Positions 38,209 through 43,307 of a DNA stretch of 64,000 nt are shown in pieces. The notes under the pieces were generated by a model, which was given only the letters and a program-made list of their open reading frames with translations, was not told the origin of the DNA and did not search any database. A program made the translations under genes and the position numbers. The stretch comes from an uncultured Alphaproteobacteria bacterium (lineage in GTDB: Bacteria > Pseudomonadota > Alphaproteobacteria > HIMB59 > GCA-002718135). The stretch covers positions 1,734 through 65,733 of the forward strand of contig CACOVJ010000004.1 in NCBI GenBank assembly GCA_902630465.1, given 5' to 3'. Within the stretch, counting starts at the first letter, position 1. Each line of letters starts with the position of its first letter.

Positions 38209-38388
38209 TGTATGCTTATAATTTTAATAGTTATATTTACTTAAGTATATATTTTTCCTAGAATTTCAAAAAAAAACGAGCATTTGAAATATTCTTATTT
38301 AGTAAAAGAAAATTATCTAAATTGTTAATAAAATTGATAAAACAAGGTAAAACTTAATATAAATAATACTAAAAAATCGCTATATTCC

Positions 38389-38417
38389 TTGAATTTTATA
38401 CAGATTAATATTATTCT
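38389..38417 (+). promoter_or_regulatory. putative sigma70 promoter for the ncRNA candidate
   Basis: TTGAAT-N17-TATTCT; places +1 at about G38424, the first G-C pair of the closing stem. Confidence 0.6.
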
Positions 38418-38423
38418 GAAAAA

Positions 38424-38564
38424 GCCGGATAATACTTAATTTCTTTGCTTCGGAGGAACGCCAAGAGATTTTAATCATCTTACCCGCCGTTTGATGATTA
38501 TATGAGTTTCTATTCTAGAGAAGTGTCTGCCAAGGTACTAACTAGTTGAGATATCCGGCTTTTT
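38424..38564 (+). ncRNA. candidate ~140-nt structured small RNA (6S-like or IMES-like; family unassigned)
   Basis: Ends pair (GCCGGAUA/UAUCCGGC, then CUUAAUU/AGUUGAG with G-U pairs that work only on +); internal hairpin UAAUCAUC/GAUGAUUA; 3' U-tract; upstream promoter; GC-richer than its flanks. Confidence 0.72.
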
Positions 38565-39551
38565 CTATTTAAGATTAGAATTGAAAAATAATTCCATCTT
38601 ATCAGCATATTCTTCTGGATATTTTATCATACTATCAACGTGATTTGAATCTTTGGCAAGCCAGTATTGTGCGTTAATTCTATTTTTTGCAGTATAGTTT
38701 TTGTAGTATTCAAAATGTCTAGTTAATACTCTTGTATCATTGTCGCCATGAGTAAAAAAGTATGACTGTGTTTTAGTAAGCTTAAAAGCTGGAGATAATA
38801 AAGTAGGATCGATACCAGTTAAGATTTTCCCAGCAAAACTTACTGCTGGTCCAAATTCAATTGACAATCCATACCTTGCTATTTCATCTGTTAGAGCCAT
38901 ATTGAATTCAGCTATTGGACTATCAGACCATATTGCTAAAATTTCTGGCTCCTCATATGCTGCAAATATAGAAGTACTAGCACCAAGAGATATTCCATGT
39001 AGCCCAATCTGATTACTCTTAAAACCAATATTTTTTAAAAAATCGAAAGCTCCTAGGATATCTTTATAGCTTTTTAAACCTAAATCTTCATATTCAGAAG
39101 TTCTATCACTTTGTCCATAATTTCTTAAATCTATTGTTAAAACATTAAAGTTTTTACTAACTAATAGAGATGTAATTAAATTAGATTCTGATTTGCATTT
39201 ACCATTAGGATTTATACCGTGTGTAACTATTATAATTGGTCTATTTGGAAAATAATTAAATAGCCAACCATTTATTTTTATATCTTTTTCTCTTGATAAA
39301 AAATATACATCTTGCCACTCATCTAAATGATAATTTTTATATGGAAAATTTTCTCTGAGTTTTCTCTGTAAAATATCATCGTATTCGTGTGCATCAATTG
39401 ATGTGCTCCAAGTATTTGGCAGTGATCCTTCGTGCATACCACAAGAAAAATCAATTTTTAAAATTTGGTAAGCTACGTAGAAACCAGCACCATAATAAAT
39501 AAAAATTATGATAATAAATATACTGATTAGATATTTTAATAATTTTTTCAT
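38565..39551 (-). CDS. membrane-anchored alpha/beta hydrolase
   Basis: N-terminal TM helix, THG, GISLG nucleophile elbow, HGDND and a C-terminal His. Confidence 0.85.
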   Translation of the reverse strand: MKKLLKYLISIFIIIIFIYYGAGFYVAYQILKIDFSCGMHEGSLPNTWSTSIDAHEYDDILQRKLRENFPYKNYHLDEWQDVYFLSREKDIKINGWLFNYFPNRPIIIVTHGINPNGKCKSESNLITSLLVSKNFNVLTIDLRNYGQSDRTSEYEDLGLKSYKDILGAFDFLKNIGFKSNQIGLHGISLGASTSIFAAYEEPEILAIWSDSPIAEFNMALTDEIARYGLSIEFGPAVSFAGKILTGIDPTLLSPAFKLTKTQSYFFTHGDNDTRVLTRHFEYYKNYTAKNRINAQYWLAKDSNHVDSMIKYPEEYADKMELFFNSNLK

Positions 39552-40588
39552 TTTGTGGGTTGAACAATTGTCATTTCGTAAAGTCTACTAGCAGTTCTTT
39601 TAAATTCTTCATTTAAACTTTGAATTAAATTTAAAGTAGTAATAGGTTTTGCTGCAAGAATTACTATTGAACATTTATTTTCATAAAGCATATCAATAAG
39701 GCTTATGAATCTCCTACAAGAATCCTTTTTTTGATCATTAAGCTCAGGTACATTTTTAAGAAAAATAATATTAAAATTTTTTGATATGTTTATGTAATCT
39801 TGATGGCTAAAATTCTCCTCACATAATTTTTTAAAGTCTGTCATTAAAATATTTGAACTGCATTTATTAAAGACTATTTCTCTACTTTTTGTTTTTATTG
39901 TAATTGTAGTTAAATGAGTATTGTCGACAAATTTATTAAATAATATTTCGAACTCTTGTTGGGTTTCATTATTTATTGGAGTAAAATATGTTTTTGACTG
40001 ATTTAAAGTTTGCCTCCTATAATCTGTATTATGATTTATATTAATAATTTCAAAATTTTTTTTAATAAGATCAATGAATGGAATAAAATCATTTCTCTGC
40101 AAACCATCTTTATACAAGTCGTCAGGTTTAAAATTTGAAGAAATTATTAAAAAAATCTTTTGTCTGCTTAATAGAAAGAAAATTTTTTTAATTATTAATG
40201 CATCAACAATATTAAATATATGCATTTCATCAATAAATAAAATTTTAAAACTTTTACTAATATTTTTTATATATTCTTCAATTGCCTTATCTTTGTTACT
40301 AGAACGTTGAACAACATCATGAATTTCTATCATAAGGTTATTAAAGTGAATTTTTTTTCCTACTTTAGAGTTCTGATAAAAAAGATTTAATAGAAAAGTT
40401 TTTCCTGTTCCAACTGATCCATACAAATAAACCCCATCCTTTTTTTTTGAATTAACAAATAGACTATTCTTTTTACTTTTGTTCCAAACTGAATTTAATT
40501 TATTAAGAACTTCTAATTGTGCCTCACTGGTTTTTATAAAATTATTTTCAACAAAACTATTATATTGGTCAATAACACTGAATGACAT
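39548..40588 (-). CDS. zapE: AFG1-family ATPase ZapE
   Basis: GVYLYGSVGTGKT, FIDE, DLYKDGLQR, RRFISLID and RTASRLYEM motifs. Confidence 0.92.
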   Translation of the reverse strand: MSFSVIDQYNSFVENNFIKTSEAQLEVLNKLNSVWNKSKKNSLFVNSKKKDGVYLYGSVGTGKTFLLNLFYQNSKVGKKIHFNNLMIEIHDVVQRSSNKDKAIEEYIKNISKSFKILFIDEMHIFNIVDALIIKKIFFLLSRQKIFLIISSNFKPDDLYKDGLQRNDFIPFIDLIKKNFEIININHNTDYRRQTLNQSKTYFTPINNETQQEFEILFNKFVDNTHLTTITIKTKSREIVFNKCSSNILMTDFKKLCEENFSHQDYINISKNFNIIFLKNVPELNDQKKDSCRRFISLIDMLYENKCSIVILAAKPITTLNLIQSLNEEFKRTASRLYEMTIVQPTK

Positions 40589-40728
40589 TATTTTTTTCCT
40601 AAAAATGATGATAATTTCTTCAGTGTTTCAATTTCTGCTTTTGAAATTGTGTTCATTTCTTTTTTCTTTAACAGTCTTTTATATTCTTTTAAAAGAAAAT
40701 TTAAACTTTCAGATATTCCTTTATTCAT
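40588..40728 (-). CDS. small basic hypothetical protein (46 aa)
   Basis: MNKGISESLNFLLKEYKRLLKKKEMNTISKAEIETLKKLSSFLGKK. Its start overlaps the MFS stop and its stop overlaps the zapE start (TAATG). Confidence 0.72.
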   Translation of the reverse strand: MNKGISESLNFLLKEYKRLLKKKEMNTISKAEIETLKKLSSFLGKK

Positions 40729-41911
40729 GATTATCAAAAATAATTGGTAAAAGTGTTGAAGCAACAATCATAATTAAACAAATTATTGAAATTATGCCAA
40801 TCCCAAAACCCCAATCTATTATATAACCAAAAATAACTGGTGAAAGAGCACTGGCTAATACTACAATAGCGTGAAAAAGTGCTTTAACGGTTCCAAGACT
40901 TTCTACACCAAAAAGTTCAGCCCACAATGATCCAGTAAATGGAGCAGAAATTCCTAAATTCAATCCATATAAGGACATGTAAATAATTAAGAAGTAAAAA
41001 TTTTCAAATAACAATAAAACAACAATTCCAATAAATATTGGTAACATTAGATATACAATAGCTTTTTTAGGATTAAGCAAATCAATTAATGGACCCCCTA
41101 AAAGAAGTCCTATTATAGAAAACGCTCCTAAAAAAATAAACCCCGTTCCAAGCATGTCTAGTGTCCAGCCTTTTTGAGTAAATATGAAAATTTGGTGAAA
41201 CATAAGTCCTGTCCCAATAAATGAGAATGACGTAGTTAAAGGAAGGTATATTAAAAATTTTTTATTTTTAATGACTTCTAAAGTGCTCCAAATTTTTTTT
41301 TCGTGTTTAATTGAATCACGAAACTTAGTCTGTCGATCACTTTGGTTGCTAAGAGTATAATATAACACTGGTAAGAATAAAATTATAGATAAAGAGCAAA
41401 ATAACCAAATTTGCTTAAAATCGAAAAACTTATTCAAATATACTATAATAATAGGCAGAAACATTACGCCTAGCATTCCACCTAAGTTACCAAAAGATAT
41501 TGCTTTACCCCTGTTCTCACCAAAGTATCTTGTCATTGATGTTATTCCTGCATGGGTCATTGCACCTTGACCAAAAAAGCGAAGTGCAAATATGATTAAA
41601 AAAAGAAAAAAAATATTTTCTGGAAGAAAATAAATAGCAACACACGGCAATAATAAACCAAGAGTGACTAGAAAAGAATAAATTCTCAAATCAATAAAAT
41701 CAATTAATTTTGCAAAATTAATAAGAAGCAATGAACTAGAGGTAGTTGCTAAGGCATATACCATTCCAAATTGACCATCTGAAAGATTATAAAGGTCTTT
41801 TATATCATCGTTGAATAGTGCAATAAAAAAAGTTTGCCCATAACTTGCAAAAAAAATTATTAAAAATCCATATATTAAAAGTTTTGGATCATACAAAATA
41901 AAATTTTTCAT
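40721..41911 (-). CDS. MFS transporter
   Basis: About 12 hydrophobic segments, with GQTFFIALF and RFFGQG...RGKAIS motifs. Confidence 0.88.
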   Translation of the reverse strand: MKNFILYDPKLLIYGFLIIFFASYGQTFFIALFNDDIKDLYNLSDGQFGMVYALATTSSSLLLINFAKLIDFIDLRIYSFLVTLGLLLPCVAIYFLPENIFFLFLIIFALRFFGQGAMTHAGITSMTRYFGENRGKAISFGNLGGMLGVMFLPIIIVYLNKFFDFKQIWLFCSLSIILFLPVLYYTLSNQSDRQTKFRDSIKHEKKIWSTLEVIKNKKFLIYLPLTTSFSFIGTGLMFHQIFIFTQKGWTLDMLGTGFIFLGAFSIIGLLLGGPLIDLLNPKKAIVYLMLPIFIGIVVLLLFENFYFLIIYMSLYGLNLGISAPFTGSLWAELFGVESLGTVKALFHAIVVLASALSPVIFGYIIDWGFGIGIISIICLIMIVASTLLPIIFDNHE

Positions 41912-43232: not shown

Positions 43233-43307
43233 GGTCTCGTGGTGAAATGGATATCACACGTGTCTTCGGAACATGGATTTGGGGTTCGAGTCCCTACGAG
43301 ACCGCCA
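43233..43307 (+). tRNA. tRNA-Arg (anticodon UCG)
   Basis: Cloverleaf: acceptor GGTCTCG/CGAGACC, D-arm GTGA/TCAC with A20, anticodon arm CGTGT-CT-TCG-GA-ACATG, T-arm TGGGG-TTCGAGT-CCCTA, encoded CCA. Confidence 0.93.

What the first reader, a model, noticed from the sequence alone, without database searches (positions are those of the whole stretch)
38389..38565. Free-standing structured small RNA gene with its own promoter between sdhC and a hydrolase
Seen: a perfect 14-bp inverted repeat (GAAAAAGCCGGATA at 38418-38431, TATCCGGCTTTTTC at 38552-38565) encloses ~120 nt. The stem extends through CUUAAUU/AGUUGAG, whose G-U pairs fix the + strand. The apical hairpin UAAUCAUC-[UUACCCGCCGUUU]-GAUGAUUA can extend with AGAGAUUU/GAGUUUCU, leaving a large central bubble that carries GCCAAG on both sides. 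A TTGAAT-N17-TATTCT promoter puts +1 at the stem's first G, and a U5 tract follows the 3' arm. It is transcribed opposite to both neighbours, so it is not a leader. Inference: closing stem, central bubble and apical stem form a 6S-like open-promoter mimic, but the usual zapA/ygfA context is missing. An alternative multi-hairpin fold would resemble the abundant marine IMES-type RNAs of unknown function. It lacks SRP, tmRNA and RNase P hallmarks. This is the best candidate for an undescribed system here.
Basis: partly seen in the sequence, partly recalled or inferred. Interest (0 to 1): 0.8.

Follow-up and report, generated by a model that had tools for sequence, protein, structure and literature searches.

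The report
New abundant structured marine small RNA
This is a real, highly expressed, about 136-base folded non-coding RNA gene found once per genome in one family of small-genome marine Alphaproteobacteria; it matches no described RNA family, does not fold like 6S RNA, and its function is unknown.

Summary
The 14-bp inverted repeat is exact. It closes a + strand RNA whose fold is supported by covariation: 96-98% of cells paired against 30-44% for slid controls, and 18-25 of 39 pairs changed on both sides. A conserved TTGAAT/A-N17-TAnnnT promoter places the start near G38424, not 38418. Contigs from four marine metatranscriptome studies cover only 38424-38559. Their adapter junctions have one orientation and end at 38559.

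The gene is single copy. It lies between sdhC and an S9 hydrolase in 16 of 16 divergent loci. Its two-hairpin core is found in 45 of 47 family genomes (11 of 11 at least 90% complete) and in none of 150 other alphaproteobacterial families.

It has no Rfam match. SRP RNA, tmRNA and RNase P RNA lie elsewhere. The 6S-like rod fold fails the covariation test. Hfq, ProQ and CsrA were not found.

Best reading: a new family of stable, shape-dependent, trans-acting RNA, probably protein-bound. The partner and function are inferred, not shown.

The parts
38389..38394 (+). -35 hexamer TTGAAT of the RNA gene's promoter
   Evidence: TTGAAT or TTGAAA at the same distance in all 37 distinct upstream regions printed, except one row where the model misplaced P1. 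Not listed by the consensus scan (8 of 12 matches).
38412..38417 (+). -10 hexamer TATTCT, spacer 17
   Evidence: A TAnnnT hexamer 17 nt after the -35 in all lineages, ending 6-7 nt before the G of GCCGG/GUCGG/GCUGA.
38424..38559 (+). Inferred mature RNA, about 136 nt, 5'-GCCGGAUA...UAUCCGGC-3'
   Evidence: The 5' end comes from promoter geometry and from a zero-mismatch RNA contig that starts at 38424. The 3' end at 38559 comes from adapter junctions in runs X4, X6 and X7. Both ends are inferred; they were not mapped by RACE.
38424..38431 (+). P1, 5' arm (GCCGGAUA)
   Evidence: Pairs with 38552-38559. 99-100% of cells paired; 4 of 7 pairs and 7 of 7 pairs changed on both sides, for example GUCGG/CCGAC and GCUGAGU/ACUCAGC.
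38434..38437 (+). P2, 5' strand (ACUU; ACUC in most relatives)
   Evidence: Pairs with GAGU at 38504-38507. Found by RNAalifold. 91-100% paired. Part of its apparent covariation comes from alignment shifts.
38441..38467 (+). Hairpin A: outer stem UUCU/AGAG, GC/GC, inner stem UUC/GAA, loop GGAG (38452-38455); GCUUCGGAGGAACGC is invariant
   Evidence: 99% paired, with compensatory outer stems (UUUUUAU/AUAAAAA, AUAG/CUAU, ACAG/CUGU) in divergent and type-2 forms.
38472..38500 (+). Hairpin B: stem UAAUCAUC/GAUGAUUA, loop UUACCCGCCGUUU with invariant CCGCC (38484-38488)
   Evidence: 7 of 10 pairs and 8 of 8 stem pairs changed on both sides. CCGCCG is invariant in all CM-found sequences.
38504..38507 (+). 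P2, 3' strand (GAGU)
   Evidence: See the P2 5' strand.
38515..38545 (+). Hairpin C: CUAG/CUAG outer stem, inner stem GUGUCU/AGGUAC with tandem G-U/U-G, loop GCCA
   Evidence: Inner stem is invariant in 37 and 72 distinct sequences. The G-U and U-G pairs would be mismatches on the - strand. The outer stem shows wobble changes and one UUAG/CUAA change.
38552..38559 (+). P1, 3' arm (UAUCCGGC); RNA 3' end at C38559
   Evidence: Adapter sequence follows 38559 (or its equivalent in relatives) in runs X4, X6 and X7 (table 7).
38560..38564 (+). U5 tract after P1, abutting the hydrolase stop codon (38565-38567, - strand)
   Evidence: A U-rich tract follows P1 in most lineages. In the largest clade 5 other bases (CCUAC) precede it.

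Best explanation
This is an independent gene for a stable, abundant, about 136-nt non-coding RNA of a family not yet described.

Shown:
- A conserved sigma-70-type promoter fires divergently from sdhC.
- The transcript folds into a closing helix P1 (GCCGGAU/AUCCGGC). P1 encloses two nested three-way junctions: P2 holds hairpins A and B side by side, and hairpin C follows.
- The RNA is present in marine metatranscriptomes as a discrete species confined to the gene.
- It is single copy, syntenic and essentially universal in one family.

Inferred:
- Transcription starts at about G38424 and ends at the U-rich tract after P1, or the 3' end is trimmed back to P1. Either way the result is a blunt, nuclease-resistant helix.
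- The invariant GGAG loop (held by the UUC/GAA stem) and the invariant CCGCC loop dock on each other: four G-C pairs around a conserved A.G.
- Together with the invariant hairpin C, they form a compact surface that a protein, or less likely a small ligand, recognises.
- The RNA therefore works in trans through its shape, as the RNA part or decoy of a ribonucleoprotein. It does not work by long antisense pairing, as a cis leader, or as a 6S-type promoter mimic.
For: Fold and strand:
- Fold z -4.57 on + against -2.92 on -.
- 37 distinct genome sequences: 98.3% of cells paired (shuffles 92.0 +/- 0.4; 0 of 500 reach it). 18 of 39 pairs changed on both sides. Slid controls 29.5-44.2%.
- 73 distinct metagenome sequences: 96.1% paired, 25 of 39 pairs, slid controls 30.8-43.6%.
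- Invariant G-U and U-G pairs in hairpin C.

Promoter: the -35 and -10 hexamers are conserved at fixed spacing in all lineages.

Expression:
- Contigs of 4 RNA runs from 4 studies cover only 38417-38559. Single contigs reach word depth 634 and 437 in X4. Flanks are empty or at most about 12.
- All four adapter junctions before the insert are of one type, and all five rows behind it are of the other type. That is one orientation, with the second mate in + sense. Under the usual dUTP convention (adapter identities recalled by me) this means a + strand RNA.

Distribution:
- Single copy.
- Full model: 60 of 79 family genomes and 0 of 71 of the sister family.
- A-B module model: 45 of 47 family genomes at least 80% complete, counting G000 itself (77% complete); 11 of 11 at least 90% complete; 8 of 8 genera.
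- No hit at E<=0.01 in 150 other alphaproteobacterial families.
- 0 viral contigs. At least 117 metagenome contigs.

Not a leader: convergent downstream genes in 16 of 16 type-1 loci and in both type-2 loci.

Shape rather than pairing:
- Stems A (inner) and C are invariant while other stems covary.
- The complement of loop B (CGGCGGG) occurs once elsewhere in the genome, antisense to an ORF.
- Hfq, ProQ and CsrA each 0 of 5 genomes.
Against: - No partner protein or ligand is identified, so the central mechanistic step is inference.
- The loop-loop contact cannot be tested by covariation, because both loops are invariant and the contact contains an A.G mismatch.
- The contigs come from assemblies. 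The tool warns that their depth cannot rank genes and that they cannot by themselves show strand or ends. The strand and end arguments rest on adapter-bearing contigs and on recalled adapter sequences.
- Several adapter-bearing contigs begin at the CUC of P2, 11 nt inside the predicted 5' end. That may mean processing that removes the 5' arm of P1.
- The metagenome and genome contigs sets were fetched with a pattern that demands the invariant blocks, so their invariance is partly by selection. The CM-found sets are not selected in this way.
- G000 is 77% complete, so a missing target or chaperone gene is not proof of absence.
Confidence: 0.5

Rival explanations
1. A riboswitch-like sensor RNA. 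The junctions and the GGAG/CCGCC loops form an aptamer for a metabolite or ion. Ligand binding stabilises P1, which sets termination at the U tract or the RNA's stability and its activity in trans.
For: The conservation pattern is aptamer-like: invariant loop and junction bases with covarying stems. P1 doubles as the helix before the U tract. The sister family has a different structured element at the same spot in front of dctQ-dctM, which looks like a leader. Linkage to sdhC is constant.
Against: No gene lies downstream in the same orientation in any of three contexts. The convergent neighbour differs between types, so read-through antisense would hit unrelated genes. No homology to the sister-family element was detectable. 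RNA contigs stop at P1, with none seen running on (weak evidence).
Confidence: 0.15
2. A base-pairing regulator that uses short G+C-rich loops as seeds. GGAGG would pair with CCUCC (the anti-Shine-Dalgarno of 16S rRNA, or cis anti-SD elements in mRNAs). CCGCC would pair with GGCGG in targets, by kissing contacts.
For: The loops are exposed, invariant and G+C-rich in a 29% G+C genome. GGAGGAA resembles the Shine-Dalgarno motif: TTCCTCC/GGAGGAA occurs 125 times in the genome (I roughly expected about 40).
Against: CGGCGGG has no sense-strand target in the 77%-complete genome. Pairing with the sdhC start region is no better than with shuffled sequence in 12 of 13 species, and it never uses the same RNA region. 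Hfq, ProQ and CsrA were not found. Invariant stems and junctions are not needed for a seed-type sRNA.
Confidence: 0.12
3. A functional analogue of 6S RNA that binds RNA polymerase holoenzyme.
For: It is free-standing, abundant, has its own sigma-70 promoter and paired termini. 6S (RF00013) was not detected in 5 of 5 genomes of the order, while SRP RNA, tmRNA and RNase P RNA are found.
Against: The rod-forming helices are poorly conserved (33.6%, 75.9%, 88.1% and 77.7% paired). The branched fold is 99-100% paired with compensatory changes. About 136 nt is short for 6S. There is no RF00013 match even at E<=10. The sister family lacks both this RNA and a detectable 6S. Pelagibacter's listed RNAs also include no 6S (passages of PMC2704228). 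So a missing 6S need not have been replaced.
Confidence: 0.07
4. Mainly a cis-acting element. The inverted repeat would be a bidirectional terminator or insulator between the convergent hydrolase operon and the sdhCDAB operon, and the transcript would be a by-product.
For: P1 sits exactly at the hydrolase stop codon. In this genome it is flanked by A5 and U5, which would suit both strands.
Against: The A/U flanks are not conserved. About 60 internal bases are invariant across genera whose sdhC proteins are only 43-69% identical. It has a conserved promoter and an abundant discrete RNA. The consensus scan calls no terminator.
Confidence: 0.05

Closest known systems
IMES-1 to IMES-4 RNAs (abundant marine environmental RNAs of unknown function, in Rfam)
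   Same: Multi-hairpin, strongly conserved, abundant in marine metatranscriptomes, no known function, not linked to a downstream gene.
   Different: No covariance-model match even at E<=10. This RNA has an assigned host lineage, a fixed locus and a promoter.
6S RNA (Rfam RF00013)
   Same: Free-standing gene, sigma-70 promoter, abundant stable RNA, 5' and 3' ends paired in a closing stem.
   Different: Branched fold rather than a rod with a central bubble. About 136 nt. No model match.
Lineage-specific, highly expressed orphan ncRNAs of marine microbes, such as Yfr103 of picocyanobacteria and Tan1 of marine Euryarchaeota
   Same: Found through abundance in metatranscriptomes, conserved secondary structure, restricted to one lineage, function open (passages of PMC5069720).
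   Different: Unrelated sequence, host and size. This RNA is single copy, whereas seven Yfr103 paralogues are reported in one Synechococcus strain.
Riboswitch-bearing trans-acting sRNAs (EutX/Rli55, SreA; recalled)
   Same: A free-standing structured RNA that could combine an aptamer-like fold with action in trans.
   Different: No known aptamer is recognisable. No ligand or target is known.
Tertiary modules with two neighbouring hairpins whose loops pair (tRNA elbow, SRP Alu domain; recalled)
   Same: P2 holds hairpins A and B side by side. Their invariant loops are nearly complementary (GGAGG/CCGCC).
   Different: This is a resemblance of topology only. No match to tRNA, SRP or large-SRP models. 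The loop contact is untested.

Membership tests
6S RNA | Match to the Rfam covariance model RF00013 | tested here: not met
   No hit in the window at gathering score or at E<=10 on 38200-38650. 0 of 1 and 0 of 5 genomes.
6S RNA | Rod-like fold: closing stem, large central bubble, terminal stem | tested here: not met
   The helices needed for the rod are 33.6%, 75.9%, 88.1% and 77.7% paired. The competing P2 and hairpin A are 100% and 99.5% paired with compensatory changes.
6S RNA | Binds sigma-70 holoenzyme and templates product RNAs | not testable with these tools
   Needs a gel shift and in vitro transcription.
IMES-1 to IMES-4 | Match to the Rfam models | tested here: not met
   Only five snoRNA-family chance hits (E 0.5-8.9, all far below gathering) in 38200-38650.
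Bacterial small SRP RNA, tmRNA, RNase P RNA | Model match at this locus | tested here: not met
   SRP RNA at G000:C1:94447-94543. alpha_tmRNA elsewhere in 5 of 5 genomes. RNase P RNA elsewhere in 4 of 5. ARAGORN finds nothing in 38000-39000.
Cis-regulatory leader or riboswitch | A gene downstream on the same strand | tested here: not met
   The downstream gene is convergent in 16 of 16 type-1 loci and in both type-2 loci.
Hfq-, ProQ- or CsrA-dependent sRNA | The partner protein is encoded in the genome | tested here: not met
   PF17209, PF04352 and PF02599 each 0 of 5 genomes, four of them 93-99% complete.
Repeat element (MITE) with terminal inverted repeats | Several copies per genome, variable location | tested here: not met
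   One full-length copy in G000. One per genome in relatives apart from one contaminated assembly. Fixed synteny.
Small protein gene | Conserved open frame | tested here: not met
   Only two 32-aa - strand ORFs overlap. Relatives differ by 1-nt indels inside them. Substitutions are compensatory for RNA pairs.

The most novel reading that the evidence does not exclude
A new class of housekeeping-type ribonucleoprotein or sensor RNA, universal in one family of abundant oligotrophic-ocean Alphaproteobacteria. Its functional core is a pair of hairpins with docking GGAG and CCGCC loops. It exists in two natural architectures: the third domain lies 3' of the core in most genera and 5' of it in two genera. 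In genomes without Hfq, ProQ, CsrA or a recognisable 6S RNA, it could be the main global riboregulator, possibly tied to respiration because of its unbroken linkage to sdhCDAB.
Probability: 0.3. Interest if true: 0.85.

Novelty: new member of a known kind. Interest (0 to 1): 0.68.

Why it matters
Record titles of the hits name uncultured marine Alphaproteobacteria, some labelled HIMB59, MarineAlpha5 or Pelagibacteraceae. One listed abstract reports the related AEGEAN169 group at up to 6% of cells in South Pacific Gyre surface water (PMC11366302, abstract start only).

In genomes of 1-1.6 Mb with almost no spare DNA, an RNA that is universal, single copy, promoter-driven, more conserved than its neighbouring proteins and prominent in metatranscriptomes is very likely important to the cell.

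It gives a host, a locus and a testable structure for an abundant marine RNA of unknown function. It also offers a marker for this lineage in metatranscriptomes. And it opens a way to study how bacteria that appear to lack the usual sRNA chaperones and 6S RNA regulate themselves.

Tried and rejected
Known RNA families. Rfam at gathering score on the whole window gave only a tRNA. Rfam at E<=10 on the locus gave only snoRNA noise.

Other identities.
- SRP, tmRNA and RNase P identity rejected.
- A hand comparison of hairpin A with the genome's own SRP RNA showed no convincing likeness.
- Repeat or mobile element rejected.
- Coding potential rejected.
- 6S-type fold rejected.
- CsrA sponge and Hfq- or ProQ-dependent sRNA rejected for want of the proteins.

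Target searches.
- Complements of loops A, B and C in the genome gave nothing usable for B and C. For A they gave only ordinary Shine-Dalgarno-like sites.
- A first whole-length duplex calculation with the sdhC leader was uninformative.
- The windowed calculation was no better than shuffled controls.

Homology with the sister family's element. The full model gave only E 0.47-10 hits there, the best-placed on the wrong strand.

Wider relatives. The A-B module model over 150 other alphaproteobacterial families gave one hit at E 0.075, which I take as chance.

Model building. MAFFT misaligned the 3' arm of P1 and the 5' strand of hairpin A in type-2 forms.

Read laying. Parts of the laid stretch without contigs (38229-38416 and 38605-38933) are not evidence of silence.

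Literature.
- Three full-text searches.
- Term searches inside PMC10308909, PMC2704228, PMC5069720, PMC11109978 and PMC8632094.
- None mentioned an RNA at this locus or in this lineage.
- Supplements are closed. The unnamed small-RNA clusters of early marine metatranscriptome papers (recalled, not read) could contain this RNA.
Full report
**1. The observation**

The sequence is as described. GAAAAAGCCGGATA (38418-38431) and TATCCGGCTTTTTC (38552-38565) are perfectly complementary and 120 nt apart (part of inverted repeat I2). The + strand folds to -49.1 kcal/mol (z -4.57; 0 of 200 shuffles as good). The - strand folds to -39.3 kcal/mol (z -2.92; 1 of 200). AT-only inverted repeats of 13-15 nt are frequent in this 29% G+C DNA. 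The repeat alone would therefore not be convincing.

**2. Surroundings**

All neighbours are on the - strand:
- sdhA 35716-37509
- sdhD 37502-37942
- sdhC 37837-38208
- an S9/alpha-beta hydrolase 38565-39551
- an AFG1-type ATPase 39548-40588
- an MFS transporter 40721-41911

The element is thus divergent from sdhC and convergent with the hydrolase. The hydrolase stop codon follows the U5 tract directly.

**3. Relatives and distribution**

- The genome (G000; 1.02 Mb, 54 contigs, 77% complete) has one copy.
- blastn finds the element in 21 of 36 other genomes of the genus and in 0 of 24 of a sister family f2.
- A covariance model of the whole RNA (R1) finds one copy in 60 of 79 genomes of family f1. 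The breakdown by genus is g1 53/69, g3 1/1, g4 1/1, g5 1/1, g6 3/4, g8 1/1, g7 0/1 and g9 0/1. It finds the element in 0 of 71 genomes of f2.
All carried titles of uncultured marine Alphaproteobacteria (some labelled HIMB59, MarineAlpha5 or Pelagibacteraceae), apart from one 3.4-kb contig filed under Flavobacteriaceae and one filed under Proteobacteria.
R1 matched 78 of the 80 loci fetched.
- No viral contig carries the pattern.

**4. Two architectures**

The two genera that R1 missed carry a second architecture at the same place upstream of sdhC.
- G072 (g7): L158:2107-2252. It has P1 AGCCAGGAA/UUCCUGGC, a 5' hairpin ending in GUGGAUAAGUU, then a long P2 around hairpin A (UUC-UGGGAG-GAA) and hairpin B (loop UCCGCCG). 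There is no hairpin C. Fold z is -6.0 on + against -4.4 on -.
- G132 (g9): a longer form, about 215 nt, with the same GUGGAUAAGUU, A and B elements.

A model of the A-B module alone (R2) gave these results:
- It finds both forms.
- It finds the module in 45 of 47 f1 genomes at least 80% complete, counting G000.
- It finds it in 11 of 11 genomes at least 90% complete and in 8 of 8 genera.
- Over one genome from each of 150 other alphaproteobacterial families, it gave nothing at E<=0.01 (best 0.075).

One of the two f1 genomes without a hit (G021) also lacks a detectable sdhC, so the locus is probably unassembled there.

**5. Structure**

MAFFT plus RNAalifold recovered hairpins A, B and C and a short P2, but misaligned the 3' arm of P1. 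I therefore built R1 from 13 well-aligned sequences with a hand-written structure and realigned all hits to it.

| Set | Distinct sequences | Cells paired | Shuffles | Pairs changed on both sides | Slid controls |
|---|---|---|---|---|---|
| Genomes | 37 | 98.3% | 92.0 +/- 0.4; 0 of 500 as high | 18 of 39 (shuffles 8.1 +/- 1.3) | 29.5-44.2% |
| Metagenomes | 73 | 96.1% | 87.5 +/- 0.3 | 25 of 39 | 30.8-43.6% |

These alignments are fitted to the model, which favours it.

Clear compensatory changes:
- P1: GCCGGAU/AUCCGGC against GUCGGAU/GUCCGAC and GCUGAGU/ACUCAGC.
- Hairpin A outer stem: UUCUU/AAGAA against UUUUUAU/AUAAAAA, AUAG/CUAU and ACAG/CUGU.
- Hairpin B: C-G against U-A in about half the sequences, plus others.

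Hairpin C's inner stem (GUGUCU/AGGUAC) never varies. It contains adjacent G-U and U-G pairs, which only the + strand can form.

P2 (ACUC/GAGU) is nearly invariant. Part of its counted covariation is an alignment shift.

CUUAAUU/AGUUGAG is 33.6% and 75.9% paired. AGAGAUUU/GAGUUUCU is 88.1% and 77.7% paired, without real compensation.

The supported fold is therefore branched: P1 > [P2 > (A, B)] + C. It is not a rod with a bubble.

**6. Promoter and ends**

- TTGAAT or TTGAAA, a 17-nt spacer and TAnnnT are kept in every lineage, often behind an A-rich stretch. The -10 ends 6-7 nt before the G of GCCGG, GUCGG or GCUGA. This places +1 at about 38424, the first base of the conserved part of P1, not at 38418.
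- The tool's consensus scan does not list this promoter, because it matches 8 of 12 positions. It calls no terminator, because its loop limit is 8 nt.
- A U-rich tract follows P1 in most lineages. In the largest clade five other bases (CCUAC) come first.

**7. Expression**

Seven RNA runs of four studies share sampled words with the element. I laid the Logan contigs of four runs, one per study, on 37900-39300 at 85% likeness or more.
- All four runs have contigs over 38417-38559. Summed word depth per bin reaches 39, 1181, 63 and 125.
- Nothing lies over 38229-38416 or 38605-38933.
- The few contigs on sdhC/sdhD or the hydrolase gene have summed word depth of at most about 12 per bin (single contigs 2-7).
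- The tool warns that contig depth cannot rank genes and that holes prove nothing. I take this only as presence of the RNA in RNA libraries, confined to the gene.

The loose ends are more telling.
- Contigs run straight into adapter sequence after 38559, or after the equivalent last base of P1 in relatives, in X4 (5 at 38559, plus two relatives), X6 and X7.
- Other contigs begin with adapter sequence followed by CUC(G), the start of P2, in X4 and X7.
- The inserts are therefore short and recurrent.
- All junctions have the same orientation, with second-mate adapter before and first-mate adapter complement behind. In dUTP-type stranded libraries this means a + strand RNA. The adapter identities and this convention are from my memory.

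The run that carries the window's own sequence type (X2, 0 mismatches) has a contig starting at 38424.

The start at CUC, 11 nt inside, may be the usual 5' loss of such libraries, or it may be processing. I cannot tell which.

The same X2 contig joins 38528 back to 38424 through a shared GCC. A reverse-transcriptase jump from the RNA's 5' end would explain this and would fit +1 at 38424. That is conjecture.

**8. What it is not**

- Rfam 15 has no match.
- SRP RNA, tmRNA (5 of 5 genomes) and RNase P RNA (4 of 5) lie elsewhere.
- ARAGORN finds nothing at the locus.
- It is not a repeat and not on viral contigs.
- It is not coding. Only two 32-aa - strand ORFs overlap, and 1-nt indels in relatives break them.
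- It is not a leader. The sdhC | RNA | hydrolase order holds in 16 of 16 divergent loci, one of which has only remnants of the hydrolase. The type-2 forms also face convergent genes, an Atg22-like MFS gene in g7.
- 6S RNA is the one common stable RNA not detected in the order (0 of 5 genomes). But the sister family lacks this RNA as well. [quoted passage not shown] A replacement is therefore not required.

**9. How it probably works**

The RNA core is far better conserved than its neighbours. About 60 bases are invariant across genera whose SdhC proteins are 43-69% identical and whose hydrolases are 53-66% identical.

Two features survive even in the type-2 architecture:
- the GGAG loop clamped by UUC/GAA
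- the CCGCC loop of hairpin B

Both are held together by P2.

Stems A (inner) and C do not covary while the other stems do. This points to recognition of sequence and shape rather than to mere pairing.

Antisense action is unlikely:
- The complement of loop B occurs once elsewhere in the genome, and on the wrong strand.
- Pairing with the sdhC start region is at chance level.
- Hfq, ProQ and CsrA are not found in 5 of 5 genomes.

I therefore favour a stable RNA that acts in trans through its fold, most likely with a protein. The two loops possibly dock on each other (GGAGG/CCGCC, four G-C pairs around A.G). This last part is inference.

The rivals are a ligand-sensing RNA, a kissing-loop regulator, a 6S analogue and a mere terminator or insulator. 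They are weighed in their own sections.

**10. Novelty**

I found no description of this RNA.
- Three full-text searches.
- Term searches in the AEGEAN-169 genome paper (0 occurrences of riboswitch, noncoding, sRNA).
- Term searches in the Red Sea start-site study.
- Term searches in two large surveys of bacterial ncRNA motifs.

Supplements could not be read. The unnamed RNA clusters of early marine metatranscriptome work are not excluded.

I file it as a new family within the known kind of lineage-specific, abundant, structured orphan RNAs.

**11. Seen in passing**

The sister family f2 has, at the same spot, a different structured element of about 95 nt (L159:2024-2118).
- It is closed by GGUCG/CGACC and has an invariant UCUCA-CCCCGCA-UGAGA hairpin.
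- It lies in front of dctQ-dctM in 25 of 25 loci and is found in 47 of 61 genomes.
- It shows some covariation and + strand G-U pairs.
- It has no Rfam hit.
- It looks like an undescribed leader of a TRAP transporter.
- Homology with the present RNA could not be shown.

Noticed in passing
L159:2024-2118 (+), and L161-L185: The sister family f2 has a different structured element of about 95 nt at the same position: sdhC(-) | element(+) | dctQ-dctM(+). It is found in 47 of 61 genomes by blastn, with the same synteny in 25 of 25 loci. Fold z is -5.1. It shows covarying pairs and + strand G-U pairs, has an invariant UCUCA-CCCCGCA-UGAGA hairpin, and gives no Rfam hit at E<=0.1. It is a candidate undescribed leader or riboswitch of a TRAP transporter.
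   Followed up: partly
window 38424-38528 (run X2): One RNA contig identical to the window joins 38528 back to 38424 through a shared GCC ('goes back 105'). This may be a reverse-transcriptase template switch from the RNA's 5' end. It remains unexplained.
   Followed up: no
window 38244-38269 (- strand): A block upstream of sdhC is conserved across genera (TTGAAATTCT...AAAAATATACTTA in relatives). It is promoter-like and stands back to back with the RNA gene's promoter (seen in the output).
   Followed up: no
L068:3193-3513: In one genome of the genus (G073) the S9 hydrolase next to the RNA is reduced to two short tblastn pieces (53 and 77 aa), while the RNA is intact.
   Followed up: no
G000 and four relatives (whole genomes): No Hfq, ProQ, CsrA or 6S RNA was detectable in 5 of 5 genomes of the order, four of them 93-99% complete. 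The usual sRNA machinery seems to be missing.
   Followed up: partly
window 37837-37942: The listed sdhD ORF (TTG at 37942) overlaps sdhC by 106 nt, so its true start is probably further downstream.
   Followed up: no
window 43233-43304 (+): This tRNA gene is the only Rfam match at gathering score in the window.
   Followed up: no
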